In this document: piece after piece, positions 300-41,352 of the stretch
How the letters are laid out: each line of letters opens with the position of its first letter
Position numbering within the stretch: position 1 is the first letter of the stretch
Source of the DNA: the human T2T-CHM13v2.0 reference genome, Homo sapiens
Direction: 5' to 3' (one strand)
Length of the DNA: 64,000 bases
NCBI RefSeq assembly: GCF_009914755.1
Contig: NC_060929.1
Notes under the pieces: generated by a model
Database searches by the model: none
What the model saw: the letters and a program-made list of their open reading frames with translations, nothing else
Told to the model about the DNA's origin: nothing
Program-made: the position numbers and the translations under genes

Positions 300-515
300 C
301 TTTTTAAAAATTTTTTATTTCAATAGGTTTTGGGGAACAGGTGGTGTTTAGTTACATGAATAAGTTCTTTAGTGGTGATTTCTGAGGTTTTGGTGCACCC
401 ATCACCCAAGCAGTGTACACTTTACCCAATGTGTAGTCTTTTATCTCTCACCTGCCTCTCACCCTTTCCCAAGTCCCCAAAGTCCATTGTATCATTTTTA
501 TGCTTTTGTATATCC
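300..515 (-). mobile_element. L1PB-type LINE-1 3' end fragment
   Basis: caataggttttggggaacaggtggtg...gttacatgaataagttctttagtggtgatttctgag is the L1PB 3' UTR motif. Confidence 0.8.
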
Positions 516-20223: not shown

Positions 20224-20517
20224 GCCATGGGCTTCAGGAGACGGTGACGGTATCTGTGTGCCTCTGCTCGGAAGGTTACTCTCCGGTGACCATGGGCTCT
20301 GGCTCAGTGACCTACGTGGACAACATGGCTTGCAGGCTGGCTCGTCTGCTGGTGACGCAGGCCAATCGCCTCACAGCCTGCAGCCACCAGACCCTGCTGA
20401 CCCCATTTGCCTTGACGGCAGGAGCACTGCCTGCCTTGGATGAGGAGCTCGTGCTGGCTCTGACCCATCTGGAATTGCCTCTAGAGTGGACTGTGTTGGG
20501 AAGTTCTTCACTTGAAG
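20224..20517 (+). CDS. ARHGEF28: ARHGEF28 exon 4 (294 nt): (G)HGLQETVTVSVCLCSEGYSPVTMGSG...EWTVLGSSSLE
   Basis: Acceptor gttgtccag|GC and donor GAAG|gtgggt. Joins exon 3 in frame (G+GC=Gly). Lies within ORF 20085..20630. Confidence 0.96.
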
Positions 20518-31585: not shown

Positions 31586-32538
31586 CAGTGTTGTATCTGG
31601 ATTCTTAATATCTTATACTGGTGGCTATATGCATAATTTAGTTTGGAAATATCCTCAGAATGTGAAGGTCAAAAATTGAGTTGCCATCTTGAAATTCTGA
31701 TGAAGACTTTTTAAAGTTGCAACTGATTTAGTATTCGTTCCACAAGCTAAAATAAAGTATATCTTGCCAATATGAGATGCAAAATCCAGGAAGTACATTC
31801 CAGTGTTATACAGCACTATGTGAATTTTCTGGAATGAATGTGTGTGTGATGGGTGTTTTCCCAAATTATTTTCAGGTGATTTTCAGCCGGAGGTGGTTGT
31901 AATATGAGTGTCTCGACTGTGCTGAAGCAGAAAACAAGTTTTAGGGAGGAAAAACCTGCCATTATGCTTGTTTCAGTCCTCCTCCTCTACCTTTTGGGCT
32001 TATGATCCAGCCATGCCAACCATGTTGGTCTTGCGCTCTGTGGAATGTCCTGATTTCATGTCTTTCTTATGAGTGTGTTTGTATTTGCAGTTCCTATCCT
32101 GGACTCACCAACCTCAGATCTCCTGTTTACAAAAGGCTGATTTGTTTATCTACATGCCAGAGCTCTGAGTAGGCTGTGTAAATGGAAGATGCTCTAAGGC
32201 ACAACCCTTTTCTCATTCTTATTGAGAATCCTGAAAACATCTTAAAGATTGTGTATGATACCCATGCCAAATTCTCTCTTCTACTCTCTATGTAAATTTT
32301 TAATAATTTTTTTCATTGTACTTTTTGTTCATCATTTTTGGCATTTTATAAATATCTGTAAATTTTCATATCATGATACATGATGTAGGTTGAATTAATT
32401 TAACATGCAGATTTGTTTTCTTGTAGTCCAGACAGTTTCCTTACTTCTATTCACATTCTTTGTGTCTAGAACTACAAACAATGAAGTAAGCCTAGAGCTG
32501 TAGTTCATCACATAGTGATTTCATGGGCCAGATATTTA

Positions 32539-32930
32539 TAGACAGTCCCTGATTTATGATGGTTTGATTTATGATTTTGATTTTATCATTGTGTGAAATG
32601 TGATGGTGTGAAAGCAATATACATTCAGTAGAAAGTGTACTTCAAATTTTGAATTTTGACCTTTTCCTGGGCTAGGCCATATGCAGTATGATACTCTTGT
32701 GATGCTGGACAGTAACGGTGAGCCACGGCTCCCAGTCAGCCAGCCACACAATCACAAGAGTAATCAGTCAATACTCCACAGTGCATTGTGTGGCCAGTGG
32801 TTTTTGGATATTGTGTTTTGTGTTTGGCCATCCCATCATATCTACAAAACACCTATTTTCAACTTACACTATTTTCTACTTATGACTGGTTTATTGAGAT
32901 ATAATTCCATCGTAAGTCAAAGAGTATCTG
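32539..32930 (-). mobile_element. MER47-type (TcMar-Tigger) DNA transposon
   Basis: Imperfect TIRs (c/t)agacagtccctgatttatgatgg / ccatcgtaagtcaaagagtatctg with TA TSDs. Confidence 0.8.
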
Positions 32931-33131
32931 TATTTTATTCTGAACAAAAGTAAGCTAGCTGTATGCTTCTCAAGGGCAGGGACCACCACACTCATCTTTG
33001 TATCCACAGGGCCTGGCAGATAATAATGGTCTCATTCAATGTTTGTCTACTGAATGACTTAGATGAACAAATTGAGACCTGCATGAATACATATGTGGCT
33101 TTGGAAATCAGAATAAAACTTATTTTAATGA

Positions 33132-33547
<416 letters not shown>

Positions 33548-33869
33548 TCAGGTGTTGTGAAACATTACTTAGCCCTAAAAAATATAAGTACTTCTGAATT
33601 AACTTGTATTGAAAAATATTATTTGCTTTTAGATTATGGTATCCATCACATTTTTGCTTTAATATTTTGCTAAATGTTTAAGCTCTTTCCTGGTTTAGCA
33701 GTAAGTAATGTAGGTTAAAAATAACTTGTAAAACTCACAGAAAACTCTTTTTGTTGTTCTTTGGTAAAATCTTATACCTAATAGATCTTAATTAAGAGCT
33801 GACTGGGTAGGCTGTGTTATAAAAGGAAGATATAGGTTTGTATTTTGCTAACCACTTATTAATTTAAAT

Positions 33870-33990
33870 TAGCAGATCCCAACTCTGGCTTTGCATTGGA
33901 ATCACTTGAGAATATTTGGAAAAGTGTGATGACTTGGCCCTGCCCCAGAAGTTCTGATTTAATTTTTCTGGAGAGGGCCTTAAACATCAG
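33870..33990. mobile_element. MER5A-like hAT fragment
   Basis: tggctttgcattggaatcac...ccccagaagttctgatttaatt. Confidence 0.65.
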
Positions 33991-34197
33991 TCTTATTAAA
34001 AAATAATAAAATAAGTTAAATAATTAACCAAGGTCTCCAGAACTCACAATCACTGCTAGAGGCAATGTAAGTTATTACCACCATTTTTGGAAAACACAGC
34101 AGCATTATCTAATACATTTAGAGAAACTAATATCTCATAGCAAATCTGTTCCATAGCAATTCCATTCCTACCTATAAACCCTAGCAAGAAAACATGC
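33990..34197 (+). repeat. Left arm of ~200-bp inverted repeat (largely L1ME-derived)
   Basis: Reverse complement of 36947-37144, about 90% identical by hand alignment. Confidence 0.92.
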
Positions 34198-36460
34198 TGA
34201 TATGGTTTGGCTGTGTCCCCACCCAAATCTCACCTTGAATTGTAACTCCCACAATTCCTACATGTCATGAGAGAAACTGGTGTGAGGTGATTGAATTATC
34301 GGGGTGGGTCTTTCCTGTACTATACTCATGATAGTGAATGAGTCTCATGAGATCTGATGGTTTTTAAAATAGGAGTTTCCCTGCACAAGCTCTCTCTCTT
34401 GCCGCCACCATGTAAGAAGTGCCTTTTGCCTTCTGCTGTGATTGTGAGGCCTCCCTAGCCACATGGAATTGTAAGTCCATTAAACCACTTTCTTTTGTAA
34501 ATTGCCCAGTCTCAGGTATGTCTTTATCAGCAGCATGAAAATGGATTAATAGAGTAAATTGGTACCACTAGAGTGGGGTGCTGCTGAACAGATACCTGAA
34601 AATGTGGAAGCAACTTTGGAACTGGGTAACAGGCAGGGGTTGGAACAATTTGGAGGGCTCAGAAGAAGACAGGAAAATGTGCAAAAGTTTGGAACTTCCT
34701 AGAGACTTGTTGAATGGCTTTGCCCAAAATGATTATAGCAATATGGACAATAAATTCCAGGCTGAGGTAGTCTCTGATGGAAATGAGGAACTTGTTGAGA
34801 ACTGGAGCGAAGGTTACGTTTTAGCAAAGAGACTGACAGCATTTTGCTCCTGTGCTAGAGATTCGTGGAATTTTGAACTTGAGAGCCATGATTTAGGGCA
34901 TCTGGCGGAAGAAATTTCTAAGCAGCAAAGCCTTCAAGAAGTGACTTGGGTGCTGTTAAAGGCATTCAGTTTTATAAGGGAAGCAGAGCATAAAAGTTTG
35001 GAAAATTTTTGGCCTGACAATGCAATAGAAAAGAAAATCCCATTTTCTGAGGAGAAATTCAAGCTGGCTGCAGAAATTTGTATAAGTAATGAAGAACTGA
35101 ATATTAATCCCCAAGACAATGGGGAAAATGTCTCCAGGGCATGTCAGAGGGCTTCATGGGAGCCCCTCCCATTATAGGCCCAGAGGCCTAGGAGGAAATG
35201 GTTTCATGGGCTGGGCCCAGGGTCCCCATGTTGTGCAGCCTAGGGACTTGGTGCCTGGCATCCCAGCTGCTCCAGCCGTAGCTGAAAGGAACCAACACAG
35301 AACTCGGGCCATGGCTTCTGAGGCTGCAAACCTCAAGCCTTGGCAGCCTCCACATGGTGTTGAACCTGCAAGTGCACAGAAGTCAAGAATTGAGGTTTGG
35401 GAACCTAGATTTCAAAGAATGTATGGAAATGCCTGTATGTCCATGGCAAAAGTTTGCTGCAGGGGTGGGGCTTTCATGGAGGACCTCTGCTAGGGTAGTG
35501 TGGATGGGAAATGTGAGGTGGGACCCCCCACACAGAGTTCCTACTGGGACACTGCCTAGTGGAGCTGTGAGAAGAGGGCCACAATCTTCCAGACCCCAGA
35601 ATGGTAGATCCACTGACAGCTTGCGCTGTGTGCCTGGAAAAGCCACAGACACTCAATATCAGCCCATGAAAGCAGCTGGGAGGGAGGCTTTACCCTGCAA
35701 AGCCACAGGGGCAGAGCTGCCCAAGACCATGGGAAACCACCTCTTGCATCAGTGTGACCTGGATATGAGACATGGAGTCAAAGGAGATCATTTTTGGAGC
35801 TTTAAGATTTGACTGCTCCACTGAATTTCAGACTTGCGTAGGGCCTGTAGCCTCTTTGTTTTGGCCAATTTTTCCCATTTGGAGTGAGTGTATTTACCCA
35901 ATGCCTGTAACCCCATTGTATCTAGGAAGTAACTAGCTTGCTTTTGATTTTACAGGCTCATAGGCAGAAGGGGCTTGCCTTGTCTCAGATGAGACTTTTG
36001 ACTGTGGACTTTTGAGTTAATGCTGAAATGAGTTAAGACTTTGAGGGACCATTGGGAAGGCATGATTGGGTTTAAAATGTAATTTGGGAGGGGCCAGGGG
36101 AAGAATGATATGATTTGGCTGTGTCCTCACCCAAATCTCATCTTGAATTATAACTCCCACAATTCCCATGTATCATGGGAGGAACCTGGTAAGAGGTGAT
36201 TGAATTATGGGGATGGGTCTTTCCTGCACTGTTCTCATGATAGTGAATGAGGCTCACGAGATCTGATAGTTTTCAAGATGGGAGTTTCCCTGCACAAGCT
36301 CCCTCTTGCCGCTGCCATGTAAGAAGTGCCTTTTGCCTTCCACCATGATTGTGAGGCCTCCCTAGCCATATGGAACTGTAAGTCCATTAAACCTCTTTCT
36401 TTTGTAAATTGCCCAGTCTCAGGTATGTCTTTATCAGCAGCATGAAAATGGACTAATACA
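34198..36460 (+). mobile_element. Full-length THE1 (THE1B-like) MaLR retroelement: 5' LTR 34198-34553, internal 34554-36105, 3' LTR 36106-36460
   Basis: Both LTRs run TGATATG...CTAATACA-like. Internal region starts gtaaattggtacc and ends in a polypurine tract. Internal ORF remnant at 34578-35177. Degenerate TSD catgc/cacac. Confidence 0.95.
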
Positions 36461-36589
36461 CACACAAATATCAGAAAAAATATTTTACCCTGTGTCTGTA
36501 TGTGTATATATATATGTGTGTGTGTGAGAGAGAGAGGCAGAGGGAGACAGAGACAGAAAAACAGAGAGATACACTCATACCAATGGACC

Positions 36590-37100
36590 TCAGGAGTGCA
36601 AATACCCCTCCTCCTTTCCTAGTCACATTCTTCTCTTTTTCCTAACAGGTATTGTGCTGACTTTTATAGTAGCCATTTCCTTGCTTTTCTTTACAGTGTT
36701 ACAACGTATGTATATATGCCTAAGTAATAATTTTAACTTTTACTCTTCTTGAACTTCATATTAATTGAAACATATCCTGTGTATTTTGTGACTTGATTTT
36801 TCCCTTTTGACATTATATTCATTACTTCCTTCTGTGTTAATCTGTAATTCATTTTGATTGTTAGAATATTGTTGTATGATTGCACTGCAATTTATTCCAT
36901 TGATGAACATTAAGATTACTTTGAATTTTGACCATTTATATTTTTTGCATGGTTTCTTGCTAGGGTTTATAGGTAGGAATGGAATTGTTGTGGACTGGAT
37001 TTGCGTTAGTTTCTCTGACTTTATTAGATAATGTTGCTGTGTTTTCCAAAGGGGTTGTAACAGTTTACATTTCCTCTAGCAGTGATTGTGAGTTCTGGAG
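36590..37100 (-). mobile_element. Old L1ME-like fragment (contains most of the right inverted arm)
   Basis: taggaatggaattg...ttttccaaaggggttgtaacagtttacattt. Confidence 0.65.
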
Positions 37101-37144
37101 ACCTTGGTTAATTATTTAACCTATTTTATTATTTTTTAATAGAC
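36947..37144 (-). repeat. Right arm of ~200-bp inverted repeat
   Basis: Reverse complement of 33990-34197. Confidence 0.92.
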
Positions 37145-37296
37145 ATTTTAAGAACAGGTTTAGGTTCATGGCAAAATTGAGTGGAAGATACAGATATTTC
37201 CCATATATTCCCTGCCCCTACACATGCACAGCCTCCCCTATTATCAATACGCCCCACAGAGTGGCACATTTGGTTATGATCGATTAGCCTACATTT
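37120..37296 (-). mobile_element. L1MC1/2-type 3' end fragment
   Basis: ggtttaggttcatggcaaaattgag...cacatgcacagcctcccc motif. Confidence 0.75.
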
Positions 37297-38573
37297 GAGA
37301 GGTTAATTTATTCTTTAATCTTCCAAGCTAAGCCTTTGGCTAATTGAAAGGTATGGCCAGATCTTGTGTGGATATGGTAATGGTTCTAAATTGACCAGTA
37401 ACAAAACCACTTTCCTTTAGTAACACTTAAACTGTCTGACCTTCCTTGCCCTTGTGCTTCAGATGCCTGGAAGCTTTGACCTGTGCTGTTTTTGCAGATA
37501 GTAACCATAGAGTTAGGACAGGATTGAATACTCTTAGGAACCTTGGATCTTTATTGTGACAGACTCATTTCATGGGCAAAGAAACTGATGCCCGGCAGAG
37601 TGAGAAGCACAAACTCTACACTCCCTTCCTATCTGGGGCAGATGGACTCCTGTTATGCAGTAAGGAATGGCTTATTGAATGGCACAGCCTGTTCAGTTCC
37701 TTTTTGTGTCTTGGTTTTCATGCTCTCATGATGTTATAGGTCGTACCTTTTAATGTTTGCCATTACAGCAATTATTAGTAATTCTGCATTGGTTACATTA
37801 GTTCAAATAACTCCTGGCACCAACCAAACAGGAAGAGACATTTATTTAGTTTAAGAAATTATTTTAAACACTCCCACCTCTGCCAAATTGTATAACCTCT
37901 TTCCACAGTTTGTTTTGCTGGCTGCCGTTAAGAAATCTGAAACTCTATAACAGGCAGAATTATTTATATATGTCATGATGCTTCCTATTTCAAGCTGTTT
38001 GCCTCGCTCTGCACTCTGAACTTTCATACTGAATGAGAAAGCTCTCTCTTACAACATTTTGGTCAGTTTTTATTTGTTTTCTTTAAACATCAGAAGATTC
38101 TCTCTTCCCCTGCCTTACCTCCTCCCCGGGAAGTGGGTAGATTCTCAGAAAGAGAGGCAACAGTGAGCCATTCAGGCCTGCATGTTTACTGTTCTCTCTC
38201 ATTGAACAAGATGTGAGGATGGAGCCAGAAGGAGAGAAGAGGGAGCTGGATTAGCAGAACAAGCTTGGAGAGCTCTCCTGGTAGAGGAAACAGATCTGCC
38301 CACACTCACACTGTTGGTCAGGTTGAATACAGTGAAATACACTCCAGGTTCAATGGTATTTAGGGCATTGCACCAGACATGGCAGAAAGTGTTACTTAAA
38401 TTGATACCATGCTTTCCTTTACCAATGGTATAATTTGAAAAGGGAACACAAAAGGTTTAGATGTTCCCTTTTGATCATTTTTTTGGGAGGGGAAAGAAAA
38501 TTACAATCCATACAACTATGGAATATTTCTCACTATATTCAGATTAGGAGATATGTCTTAGAAATTCCATCCG

Positions 38574-38889
<316 letters not shown>

Positions 38890-39702
38890 TTAGTATGCCT
38901 GGTTAATATCTCATGCTGACAGGTTTTCCTGTGTTGGGGAGTACACATGCACATATGTGTGCATATGTATATTTGTTACCTGATCTTAACAAGTCTATTC
39001 CTGGTTATTATTTAAAAAGGAAGAAAAATACAAATATTATCCAACATTTTAGATACCCTGCTGGGAATCTAAAAACAAAAACCTCACTTTTTATTCAAAG
39101 GAGTATAATGGTCAAAAGTTAAAGGATAAAATAGTCAAAGATAAGTTCTCTAATAGCTAACATAGTTTTTTAATTTTCATAAAGCTGAAGATATCAAGTA
39201 TATTAAACAAATGTCTGGCAGGAGTGTATTGCCTTGTCTGTTTTTAGATATTTTGGTATTTTGAATGTTATTTTACTGAGGGGAAGTGTTCCATGTCACA
39301 CAGATGATTGATAGAGTAAATATACTGGTAAGTTGGTGGCATTTCACTGTGATGAGTTCATTTACATATTTTAAGTATAATGCCTTACATTCATTGATCT
39401 AGCTATCTATATATCTATAGATATAGATATATAAATAATTAAAAATGTAAACTAAGCCTTTTATTTGCATTCATTTATGGTGGAGTGTTTCCTTCTAATT
39501 GTTTCAAATTAGAGCTTTGTAGAAACCTGGCTTCCCAAGTATCATCATTACCACAGCCTGCAGGTAGGACAAAGCTGAGTTTATTGCCTACTATGGTATG
39601 GGAGAACACCACCTCCACAGGGCCTTAGAGGTGTCTTGAAGGGGGAGCTGTGAGGTGAGGTGAGAATTTATTGAGAACTTGAAGTTTGGCTTAATGAGGG
39701 TC

Positions 39703-41168: not shown

Positions 41169-41352
41169 TATCTTCTCACAGAGAATCTCTTCTACACCTG
41201 GCTATGAGATGGGGCCTGGCTAAACTTTCCCAGTTCTTCTTGTGTCTCCCGGGGGGAGTCCAGGCCTTGGCTTTACCCAACGAAGAGGGTGCCACACCAT
41301 TAGACTTAGCTTTACGTGAAGGACACTCCAAGCTGGTGGAAGACGTCACAAA
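41169..41352 (+). CDS. ARHGEF28: ARHGEF28 exon 5 (184 nt): (V)SSHRESLLHLAMRWGLAKLSQFFLCLPGGVQALALPNEEGATPLDLALREGHSKLVEDVT
   Basis: Acceptor ttttcctcttcag|TA and donor ACAAA|gtgagt. In frame with exon 4 (G+TA=Val). Confidence 0.96.

What the first reader, a model, noticed from the sequence alone, without database searches (positions are those of the whole stretch)
33990..37144. A ~200-bp inverted repeat encloses the whole THE1B element: candidate invertible or looped-out LTR cassette
Seen: 33990-34197 is the reverse complement of 36947-37144. A hand alignment gives about 19 substitutions and 3 indels. Identity is patchy, with perfect blocks of 48 bp (gttaaataattaaccaaggtctccagaactcacaatcactgctagagg) and 35 bp (caattccattcctacctataaaccctagcaagaaa) flanking a middle of roughly 80%. 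The match runs past the L1ME fragment into non-L1ME sequence and the L1MC tail, so two independent L1 insertions do not explain it. The left arm ends exactly at the THE1B 5' LTR. Inference: the patchiness suggests gene conversion or recurrent recombination between the arms. Recombination would invert the ~2.75-kb spacer and flip the LTR promoters, donors and polyA signals relative to ARHGEF28. In pre-mRNA the arms could pair and loop out the sense-oriented retroelement.
Basis: partly seen in the sequence, partly recalled or inferred. Interest (0 to 1): 0.8.

Follow-up and report, generated by a model that had tools for sequence, protein, structure and literature searches.

The report
Old inverted micro-duplication around a THE1B element
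A roughly 220-base piece of old LINE-1 debris was copied backwards next to itself tens of millions of years ago and an LTR retroelement landed at the edge of the copy, leaving what looks like an ordinary, probably inert, intronic relic rather than a switch.

Summary
The inverted repeat is real. Window 33979-34197 is the reverse complement of 36947-37152: 188 matches, 18 substitutions, 6 indel events, with perfect blocks of 48 and 35 nt.

In the whole assembly the left arm matches only itself and the right arm. Neighbouring L1 pieces match their paralogues at only 65-79%.

The right arm is the source. It runs without a break from the last bases and A-rich tail of an abundant L1M-type 3' end into an older L1 ORF2 fragment that continues into the spacer. 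The left arm is a copy with two new junctions.

Arm divergence (K2P 0.094 +/- 0.023) equals THE1B LTR-LTR divergence (0.092 +/- 0.017), so the duplication and the integration are about the same age.

The geometry fits fold-back or template-switch repair. THE1B probably integrated about 6 nt inside the copy's inner end (weak).

The "patchiness" loses significance once adjacent differences are merged, and both arms carry private changes. RNA pairing of the arms is predicted, but the same window holds many inverted repeat pairs.

Inversion, gene conversion and editing could not be tested here. Verdict: ordinary old rearrangement, low interest.

The parts
33979..34197 (+). Left arm. This is the derived, inverted copy of 36947-37152, and both of its junctions are new.
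   Evidence: Local and global alignment. Its only genomic relative is the right arm. Its outer flank 33862-33971 belongs to an unrelated old repeat.
34193..34197 (+). CATGC, the last 5 nt of the left arm and the candidate left target-site duplication of the LTR element.
   Evidence: Sequence. It matches CACAC at 36461-36465 in 3 of 5 positions, and both differences are transitions. This is inconclusive.
34198..34553 (+). 5' LTR of the full-length LTR retroelement. The element is in sense orientation relative to ARHGEF28.
   Evidence: It aligns to the 3' LTR with 322 of 352 sites identical. The family gives 8477 first-look candidates, and 34 of 40 scored matches start at query base 1.
34554..36105 (+). 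Internal region of the LTR element.
   Evidence: It lies between the two direct LTRs. It was not analysed further.
36106..36460 (+). 3' LTR, ending in ...AATACA.
36461..36471 (+). CACAC plus AAATAT: the candidate right target-site duplication, followed by about 6 nt that resemble the right copy's continuation (CATGCAAAAAATAT). This may be the priming microhomology of the fold-back.
   Evidence: Anchored alignment against random window k-mers gives p=0.0086 for k=11, 0.035 for k=14 and 0.027 for k=20. An unanchored local alignment of longer stretches was at chance level.
36472..36946 (-). Original spacer or loop. It holds a (TG)n/(GA)n microsatellite at about 36490-36560 and the L1 ORF2-end/3'UTR-derived continuation of the right arm.
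   Evidence: Paralogues match 36587-36829 at 65-75%. A 9-locus profile hits 36799-36641 (E 1e-26) and, colinearly, 37076-36967 (E 0.007).
36947..37152 (-). Right arm, the source copy. It is contiguous with its neighbours on both sides.
   Evidence: L1 ORF2p residues 1140-1190, E 0.087, top 4 PDB hits; ORF2 part 37095-37040, E 1.3e-6.
37136..37295 (-). 3' end of a younger, abundant L1M-type element. Its last roughly 17 nt and its A-rich tail lie inside the right arm.
   Evidence: nhmmer with a profile of 30 paralogues gives E 6e-30. There were 1227 first-look candidates. 10 of 11 inspected paralogues end between 37146 and 37124 and continue into unrelated DNA; L027 aligns on to 37078.

Best explanation
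This is a fossil inverted micro-duplication in an ARHGEF28 intron. Long after two L1 fragments had come to lie side by side on the minus strand, about 220 nt spanning their junction was copied in reverse orientation. The copy was placed roughly 470 nt away, on the far side of the older L1 fragment. The fragments are the 3' end and A-tail of an L1M-type element, followed by an older, 5'-truncated L1 ORF2 piece. The most likely mechanism is fold-back (snap-back) or template-switch DNA synthesis during repair of a break near 36466. The resected minus-strand 3' end would anneal to a short complementary stretch (AAATAT/ATATTT) near 36938-36946 on the same strand. It would then copy outward to about 37152 and be joined, without microhomology, to the other broken end at 33978. 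At about the same time a full-length THE1B-type LTR element integrated canonically, roughly 6 nt inside the inner end of the new copy (target CATGC). That widened the loop from about 0.47 kb to 2.75 kb. Since then both arms have decayed neutrally and independently. The structure is most likely inert at the DNA level. In the pre-mRNA the arms can in principle form a long imperfect duplex, like the many other inverted repeat pairs of this gene. Shown: the repeat, its uniqueness, which arm is the source, the composite origin, the equal ages, the symmetric decay and the predicted RNA pairing. Inferred: the repair mechanism, the microhomology, the order of duplication and integration, and neutrality.
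For: The repeat is real and unique.

The right arm is the source. Paralogues of the L1M 3' end align continuously from about 37260 and stop at 37146-37124 in 10 of 11 inspected loci; L027 extends to 37078. Among the 40 scored matches, only the left arm matches beyond that point (97% over 77 nt). A profile of 30 paralogues places the L1 3' end at 37295-37136 and an ORF2 segment at 37095-37040. In intact copies that ORF2 segment lies about 750 nt upstream of the 3' end, so two separate L1 pieces abut inside the arm. ORF2p residues 1140-1190 align to 37090-36935. A 9-locus profile links 37076-36967 and 36799-36641 colinearly.

The geometry is that of a hairpin: 34197 pairs with 36947 (inner ends) and 33979 with 37152 (outer ends).

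The ages match: arms K2P 0.094 +/- 0.023, LTRs 0.092 +/- 0.017. Neighbouring L1 pieces and their paralogues are only 65-79% identical.

Decay is symmetric: 7 left-derived and 10 right-derived of 24 polarised columns, and the 8-nt indel looks like a deletion in the right arm.

The 11 nt after the 3' LTR resemble the right copy's continuation (p about 0.01-0.03).

Snap-back templated synthesis at breaks is an established repair outcome (titles and abstract openings of PMC5728401 and PMC2943611).
Against: The target-site duplication is only 3 of 5 (CATGC versus CACAC), which chance gives about 10% of the time by my own binomial arithmetic. The proposed microhomology needs the A-run to be 3 nt shorter than in the source. 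The k=11 window was chosen after seeing the sequence. An unanchored alignment of the post-LTR sequence to the source was at chance level (score 18 against a null of 18.3 +/- 2.4). Snap-back insertions described experimentally are, from my recollection, mostly tens of nt, not about 220 nt with a 470-nt loop. The near coincidence of the integration site with the copy's inner edge, and the equal ages, are left as coincidences. Per-column mismatch clustering is nominally significant. No orthologous or population data were available, so the timing and order rest on two short alignments with wide errors.
Confidence: 0.6

Rival explanations
1. One complex event. A break captured a linear THE1B DNA. 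Its processed 5'-LTR end primed on the resected chromosomal strand at about 36947 and copied roughly 220 nt, and the product was then joined to the left chromosome end. Duplication and insertion would then be a single repair event.
For: The left arm abuts the first LTR base. The arms and the LTRs have the same divergence. There is no clean 5-nt target-site duplication (3 of 5).
Against: There is no microhomology between the LTR terminus (TGATAT...) and the template next to CATGC (AAAAAATAT...) (sequence). Both LTR ends are canonical TG...CA. The 11 nt beyond the 3' LTR look like a continuation of the copy, which this model does not predict.
Confidence: 0.12
2. The repeat is much older, dating to soon after the L1M insertion. 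It was kept similar by gene conversion between the arms, either ongoing or until the LTR insertion moved the arms apart. On this view the arm divergence dates the end of conversion, not the duplication.
For: This would explain the equal arm and LTR divergence without coincidence. Nominal mismatch clustering leaves perfect blocks of 48 and 35 nt at the two ends.
Against: The clustering fades when neighbouring differences are treated as single events. Both arms carry private derived changes across the middle. The arms are only 219 nt long. Moving them from 0.47 to 2.75 kb apart is a modest change. An unrelated L1 palindrome with only a 39-nt loop (L010) is also only 87-91% identical, so proximity alone does not keep such arms identical.
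Confidence: 0.08
3. The structure is a functional or polymorphic invertible cassette. Recombination between the arms would flip the 2.75-kb spacer, and with it the LTR promoters and signals, relative to ARHGEF28.
For: Inverted repeats of at least 200 nt flank 132 of 183 sequence-resolved balanced human inversions (passages of preprint 10.1101/2021.12.20.472354). The arms just reach that length.
Against: Identity is 91% and the longest identical tract is 48 nt. Recurrent inversions are mostly flanked by repeats of at least 10 kb. T2T-CHM13 holds 627,791 inverted pairs of at least 200 nt and at least 80% identity (passages of PMC11794170), so such pairs are commonplace. No paper links ARHGEF28 with THE1B (0 papers). 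The 4 papers holding ARHGEF28, inversion and structural variant were seen only as a listing; none looked relevant by title, and none was opened.
Confidence: 0.03
4. The arms act at the RNA level. They would form a roughly 200-bp intronic duplex that is edited by ADAR, or that masks the sense-oriented LTR element's splice and polyadenylation signals, with a regulatory effect on ARHGEF28.
For: Cofolding of the arms gives -278 kcal/mol, against -80 +/- 4.6 for 50 shuffled controls. 188 of 219 left-arm nt pair with the right arm, and they also do so in the minimum-energy fold of 33900-37250. Both arms lie in one intron (hub annotation).
Against: This is an energy prediction only. There was no Rfam match. 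The window has 35 inverted pairs of at least 60 nt within 10 kb, several of them longer and closer together. The structure lies 13 kb and 4 kb from the flanking exons and is removed with the intron in any case. Both arms have decayed at the neutral LTR rate, which argues against constraint. No paper was found (0 papers).
Confidence: 0.05
5. The arms are two independent L1 insertions, an L1 twin-priming inversion, or the terminal inverted repeats of a DNA transposon.
For: Both arms contain L1 ORF2-like sequence. According to the abstract seen, twin priming explains about 85% of human inversions under 2 kb.
Against: The arms share the tail of a second L1 element and its particular A-rich tail. 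They are 91% identical, whereas neighbouring L1 pieces match their paralogues at 65-79%. They overlap completely instead of being adjacent L1 segments. No other genomic copy exists.
Confidence: 0.01

Closest known systems
Snap-back / fold-back templated synthesis at double-strand breaks (SD-MMEJ, and at larger scale MMBIR/FoSTeS inverted duplications)
   Same: It is an inverted copy of nearby same-chromosome sequence. It has hairpin geometry, with the inner ends corresponding to each other. The source is intact and the copy has new junctions. There is a candidate short priming homology.
   Different: The copy (about 220 nt) and the loop (about 470 nt before the LTR insertion) are larger than the experimental snap-back products I recall, and far smaller than pathogenic fold-back duplications. 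The priming junction is now interrupted by an LTR element, so it cannot be read cleanly.
NAHR-mediated inversion toggling between inverted segmental duplications or mobile elements (Porubsky et al.)
   Same: Two inverted, similar sequences flank a unique spacer.
   Different: The arms are at the bottom of the length range, 91% identical, and have at most 48 nt of uninterrupted identity. No evidence of two orientations was available.
Intronic inverted Alu pairs that form dsRNA and are edited by ADAR
   Same: Both arms are transcribed within one intron in opposite orientation, and a long imperfect duplex is predicted.
   Different: The arms are not Alu. They are a unique pair with a 2.75-kb loop. 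Editing was not examined.
L1 twin-priming 5' inversions
   Same: L1 sequence is present in both orientations within a short distance.
   Different: Twin priming joins neighbouring segments of one L1 at the time of insertion. Here the same segment is present twice, includes part of another L1, and is much younger than the L1 itself.
Inverted duplications at inversion breakpoints from staggered breaks (Ranz et al. 2007, recalled)
   Same: Inverted duplicate copies sit at the two ends of a segment.
   Different: That model makes one junction of each copy new. Here the right arm is contiguous with its ancestral neighbours on both sides, so the spacer was not inverted.

Membership tests
Fold-back / template-switch inverted duplication | An inverted copy of a nearby sequence on the same chromosome, much more similar to its source than to any paralogue | tested here: met
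   The arms are 91.3% identical. The genome search found only the two arms. Neighbouring L1 pieces match their paralogues at 65-79%.
Fold-back / template-switch inverted duplication | One copy (the source) is contiguous with its ancestral flanks on both sides, and the other has two new junctions | tested here: met
   The right arm continues into the L1M 3' end and into L1 ORF2-end sequence (the inner side is weaker, E 0.007). The left arm is flanked by an unrelated repeat and by the LTR.
Fold-back / template-switch inverted duplication | Hairpin geometry: the ends of copy and source that face each other correspond | tested here: met
   34197 aligns with 36947 and 33979 with 37152.
Fold-back / template-switch inverted duplication | Microhomology at the priming junction | tested here: inconclusive
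   AAATAT follows the putative target-site duplication, against CATGCAAAAAATAT in the source. Anchored p is 0.0086 to 0.035 with a post-hoc window. The unanchored alignment was at chance. No microhomology is visible at the outer junction.
Fold-back / template-switch inverted duplication | The copy is absent in lineages that split before the event | not testable with these tools
   No primate or other mammalian genomes are held.
NAHR-competent inverted repeat / toggling inversion | [quoted passage not shown] | tested here: met
   219 nt, at the threshold used.
NAHR-competent inverted repeat / toggling inversion | Long, highly identical tracts (recurrent cases mostly at least 10 kb) | tested here: not met
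   The longest identical tract is 48 nt and identity is 91%. The literature figure comes from passages read.
NAHR-competent inverted repeat / toggling inversion | Both orientations are seen among haplotypes or species | not testable with these tools
   No pangenome or primate assemblies are held. bioRxiv supplements are closed.
L1 twin-priming inversion | The inverted and direct parts are neighbouring segments of one L1 insertion and are as old as that insertion | tested here: not met
   The arms duplicate the same segment, include another L1's 3' terminus, and are far more alike than L1 paralogues.
DNA transposon with terminal inverted repeats | Many genomic copies share the same termini | tested here: not met
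   Only 2 matches in the assembly, and the arms are built of L1 pieces.
Canonical LTR-retroelement integration (THE1/MaLR-type) | Two direct LTRs with TG...CA ends | tested here: met
   LTRs 34198-34553 and 36106-36460 share 322 of 352 sites. They begin TGATATG and the 3' LTR ends ATACA.
Canonical LTR-retroelement integration (THE1/MaLR-type) | A 5-nt target-site duplication (length recalled for this class) | tested here: inconclusive
   CATGC against CACAC, 3 of 5, and both differences are transitions.
Intronic inverted-repeat dsRNA (ADAR substrate) | Both arms lie in one transcript and a stable duplex is predicted | tested here: met
   They lie in the intron between exons ending at 20517 and starting at 41169 (hub annotation). 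The cofold energy is -278 kcal/mol against -80 for shuffled controls, with 188 of 219 nt paired.
Intronic inverted-repeat dsRNA (ADAR substrate) | Clustered A-to-I editing or direct duplex evidence | not testable with these tools
   No RNA data are available. No paper holds ARHGEF28, RNA editing and inverted repeat together (0 papers).

The most novel reading that the evidence does not exclude
The duplication and the THE1B integration are mechanistically linked. In one version, the stem-loop-prone junction of a freshly made inverted repeat attracted the integrase to the base of the loop. Retroviral integrases prefer sites next to cruciform loops in vitro (passages of PMC3279379 citing Katz). 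In the other version, both arose in one break-repair event that captured the retroelement DNA. Either way the locus would be a fossil of structure-directed or repair-coupled integration of an ERV-L/MaLR-type element about 20-45 million years ago. The evidence does not exclude this. The element sits within about 6 nt of the arm-loop boundary, and the arms and LTRs have indistinguishable ages.
Probability: 0.1. Interest if true: 0.45.

Novelty: new member of a known kind. Interest (0 to 1): 0.15.

Why it matters
As it stands it matters little. It is one more small, old, non-allelic inverted duplication in an intron, of a kind that break repair and replication template switching are known to produce. 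It sits in a genome that holds hundreds of thousands of inverted repeat pairs of this size.

Its modest value is as a well-resolved example. The source and the copy can be told apart. The event can be dated against an internal clock, the LTR pair of the nested element. The copy's decay can be polarised.

It would matter more in three cases. First, if primate orthologues showed that the retroelement integration was directed by, or coupled to, the inverted repeat. Second, if human haplotypes differed in spacer orientation, which would flip LTR signals inside ARHGEF28. Third, if the arms proved to be a strongly edited non-Alu dsRNA.

Tried and rejected
- Pfam scan of three frames of each arm region, with stops read as X: 0 families for all 6 translations. 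The first attempts without X were rejected for stop codons.
- PDB sequence search of the other two frames: 0 hits. Frame 2 gave only weak ORF2p hits, E 0.087-0.29.
- Rfam over 33500-37600: 0 matches at E up to 1.
- Continuation of the left copy beyond the LTR element, by unanchored local alignment: score 18 against a null of 18.3 +/- 2.4, so nothing. Only the anchored 11-20-nt test gave a weak signal.
- Colinearity of the left flank repeat (33862-33971) with the DNA right of the element, using paralogues L004-L006: the only extra hit was a 70% match over 70 nt in L006, overlapping the microsatellite, which I judged uninformative.
- Idea that the mismatch-rich middle reflects error-prone synthesis of the copy: rejected, because derived changes are about equal in the two arms (7 against 10 of 24 columns). 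Alignment to the outgroup is unreliable at both ends of the arm, and in the best-aligned core the split was 5 left against 2 right.
- Staggered-break inversion model: rejected, because the right arm is ancestral on both sides.
- Reading the arm's outer A-rich part as L1 ORF2 (an 'MAIIKK'-like stretch, recalled) rather than an L1M tail: left open for about 30 nt. The 3'-end profile alignment reaches 37136 with low posterior over its last roughly 15 columns.
- Literature: 0 papers for ARHGEF28 plus THE1B. 0 papers for ARHGEF28 plus RNA editing plus inverted repeat. 4 papers for ARHGEF28 plus inversion plus structural variant, seen as a listing only; none looked relevant by title, and none was opened.
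Full report
**1. Observation**

The repeat finder on 32000-39500 reports three inverted segments, offset from one another by small indels. They are 33994-34093/37042-37141 (100 nt, 90%), 34086-34130/37006-37050 (45 nt, 91%) and 34140-34197/36947-37004 (58 nt, 90%).

A gapped local alignment merges them into one inverted repeat: 33979-34197 against the reverse complement of 36947-37152. Over 219 columns there are 188 matches, 18 substitutions (12 transitions, none in a CpG context) and 6 indel events covering 13 columns. Identity is 91.3% over aligned bases.

A search of the whole 3.1-Gb assembly with the left arm found 2 candidates, itself and the right arm (E 9e-62), and nothing else. The tool warns that such counts are lower bounds.

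**2. What the arms are made of**

The arm core is L1 ORF2-derived.
- On the minus strand, the right arm read in one frame (stops as X) aligns to human LINE-1 ORF2 protein residues 1140-1190. The match is weak (E 0.087-0.29), but the four best PDB hits are all ORF2p.
- Three genomic L1 copies (L018, L024, L025) match 37095-37008 at 66-79%, at a position 700-800 nt upstream of their own 3' ends.
- A profile of 30 paralogues matches 37095-37040 (E 1.3e-6) and the left arm 34040-34096 (E 0.058) at profile positions 362-417.

The same profile matches 37295-37136 at positions 1006-1169, the 3' end of that L1 family, with E 6e-30. A genome search with 37060-37340 gave 1227 first-look candidates. All 38 scored paralogue matches, that is all 40 scored matches apart from the self match and the left arm, end at query positions equivalent to 37148-37115. 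Of 11 inspected paralogues, 10 end between 37146 and 37124 and continue into unrelated DNA; one, L027, aligns on to 37078. Only the left arm matches beyond that point.

On the minus strand the order is therefore: L1M-type 3' end, its A-rich tail, then a different, 5'-truncated L1 ORF2 fragment. The arms begin about 17 nt inside the first element.

The piece of L1M tail inside the arm is short, and the roughly 30 A-rich nt after it cannot be assigned with certainty. They agree with my recollection but were not tested, because no repeat library is held.

**3. Which arm is the original**

The right arm is contiguous with ancestral sequence on both sides.
- Outward, the L1M 3' end runs into it without a break.
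- Inward, the ORF2p alignment runs 12 nt past 36947. A profile of 9 paralogues of the spacer hits 36799-36641 (E 1e-26) and, colinearly and on the same strand, 37076-36967 (E 0.007).

The left arm is bounded outward by an unrelated old repeat: 33862-33971 has three paralogues at 73-76%. Inward it is bounded by the LTR. So the left arm is the copy and both its junctions are new. This also excludes a staggered-break inversion, which would make one junction of each copy new.

**4. The nested element and relative ages**

The LTRs are 34198-34553 and 36106-36460. They share 322 of 352 aligned sites.

The family is very abundant, with 8477 first-look candidates. Of the 40 scored matches, 34 start at query base 1, so the LTR begins at 34198 and the left arm ends at 34197. 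The element is in the sense orientation of ARHGEF28.

K2P distance is 0.094 +/- 0.023 for the arms and 0.092 +/- 0.017 for the LTRs. The duplication and the integration therefore cannot be told apart in age. With recalled neutral rates of about 1-2.2e-9 per site per year, this is roughly 20-45 million years (inference). Neighbouring L1 pieces are only 65-79% identical to their paralogues, so the duplication is much younger than the L1 insertions.

**5. Junctions**

The left flank of the element ends in CATGC. The right flank starts CACAC, a 3 of 5 match with two transition differences, and continues AAATATCAG. The source copy reads CATGCAAAAAATATAAATGG on the minus strand.

I anchored an alignment at the first base after the 3' LTR and compared its score with random window k-mers. 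The first 11 nt score higher than all but 0.86% of them. The figures are 3.5% for 14 nt and 2.7% for 20 nt, and the window length was chosen after seeing the data. An unanchored alignment of 160 nt after the LTR against the source's continuation was at chance level (18 against 18.3 +/- 2.4).

My reading is that the element integrated canonically into the copy about 6 nt before its inner end. Before that, the copy read ...CATGC-AAATAT-CAG... and ended at a short AAATAT/ATATTT homology.

This fits fold-back priming. A break near 36466 would leave a resected minus-strand 3' end (...ATATTT). That end anneals to AAATAT of the same strand at 36938-36946 and is extended outward to about 37152, giving exactly the observed orientation (34197 aligned with 36947, 33979 with 37152). 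It is then joined to 33978, where I see no microhomology. The A-run is 3 nt shorter than this model predicts. All of this paragraph is inference.

**6. Gene conversion and patchiness**

Shuffling differences per column gives P=0.035 for a perfect run of at least 48, and 0.0017 for the two longest runs together. However, the differences are themselves clumped around indels.
- Merging adjacent differences into events gives 0.10 and 0.012.
- Merging those no more than 1 nt apart gives 0.25 and 0.06.
- Merging those no more than 3 nt apart gives 0.39 and 0.13.

I polarised the differences with 30 L1 paralogues as outgroup. Of 24 differing columns, 7 were left-derived, 10 right-derived, 6 differed in both arms and 1 was ambiguous. 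Alignment to the outgroup is unreliable at both ends of the arm. In the best-aligned core the split is 5 left against 2 right. The 8-nt indel looks like a deletion in the right arm, because the left arm keeps the outgroup's length.

Decay is therefore two-sided, as expected for neutral divergence. There is no sign of an error-prone copy and no need for conversion. Conversion is not excluded.

**7. Inversion and RNA**

The longest identical tract is 48 nt. Passages of PMC11794170 report 627,791 inverted pairs of at least 200 nt and at least 80% identity in T2T-CHM13.

[quoted passage not shown] They also report that 23 of 32 recurrent autosomal and X inversions have repeats of at least 10 kb. 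A single historical inversion cannot be excluded, but section 3 shows the spacer is still in its ancestral orientation relative to the right arm. Recurrent flipping is unlikely. No haplotype or primate data were available, and the preprint's supplements were closed.

As RNA, the two arms cofold at -278 kcal/mol, against -80 +/- 4.6 for 50 controls with the right arm shuffled. 188 of 219 left-arm nt pair with the right arm, and they also do so in the minimum-energy fold of 33900-37250. This is a prediction only.

The window contains 35 inverted pairs of at least 60 nt within 10 kb. Most are 72-88% complementary, some are longer and closer together, and I take them to be Alu-like (not tested). 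Rfam finds nothing. The structure lies deep in the intron between the exons ending at 20517 and starting at 41169, so looping it out has no obvious effect on splicing.

**8. Verdict**

This is a real, unique and datable inverted micro-duplication of an L1/L1 junction with an LTR element nested at the inner edge of the copy. It is best explained by fold-back or template-switch repair followed closely by canonical integration, and it has decayed neutrally since.

The invertible-cassette and gene-conversion readings are not supported, but they could not be tested directly.

One curiosity remains. The integration site coincides with the arm-loop boundary, and the two events have the same apparent age. 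That leaves about a 10% chance of a mechanistic link, either structure-directed integration or one complex repair event. In-vitro work cited in PMC3279379 (passages) says integrases prefer sites next to cruciform loops.

Noticed in passing
L010:1104-1640 (G000 contig C2, about 222.605-222.606 Mb): A paralogue of the spacer's L1 ORF2-end segment forms a near-palindrome. Arms 1226-1352/1392-1518 are 127 nt and 91% complementary with a 39-nt loop. Arms 1104-1209/1535-1640 are 106 nt and 87% complementary. It is a second, independent inverted duplication of old L1 DNA with a similar arm identity (two opposite-strand hits).
   Followed up: partly
window 300-395 and 878-973: Another local inverted pair: 96 nt, 88% complementary, 482 nt apart. 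From the sequence it looks like two copies of an interspersed repeat in opposite orientation. Its family was not identified.
   Followed up: no
window 33183-33480 and 38573-38880: Two repeats that look like Alu elements by sequence (family name not tested) lie in the same orientation and bracket the whole structure about 5.4 kb apart. Their segments are 79-91% identical (direct-repeat families D1, D4, D5, D7, D10). In principle they are a substrate for a deletion between them that would remove both arms and the LTR element.
   Followed up: no
window about 36490-36560: A compound (TG)n/(GA)n microsatellite sits about 30 nt beyond the 3' LTR, inside the original loop. The CACACA run at the LTR edge may have blurred the target-site duplication.
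   Followed up: no
window 33862-33971: A roughly 110-nt old repeat fragment lies just outside the left arm. Only three paralogues were found, at 73-76%. Its family was not identified, and it ends 8 nt before the arm.
   Followed up: partly
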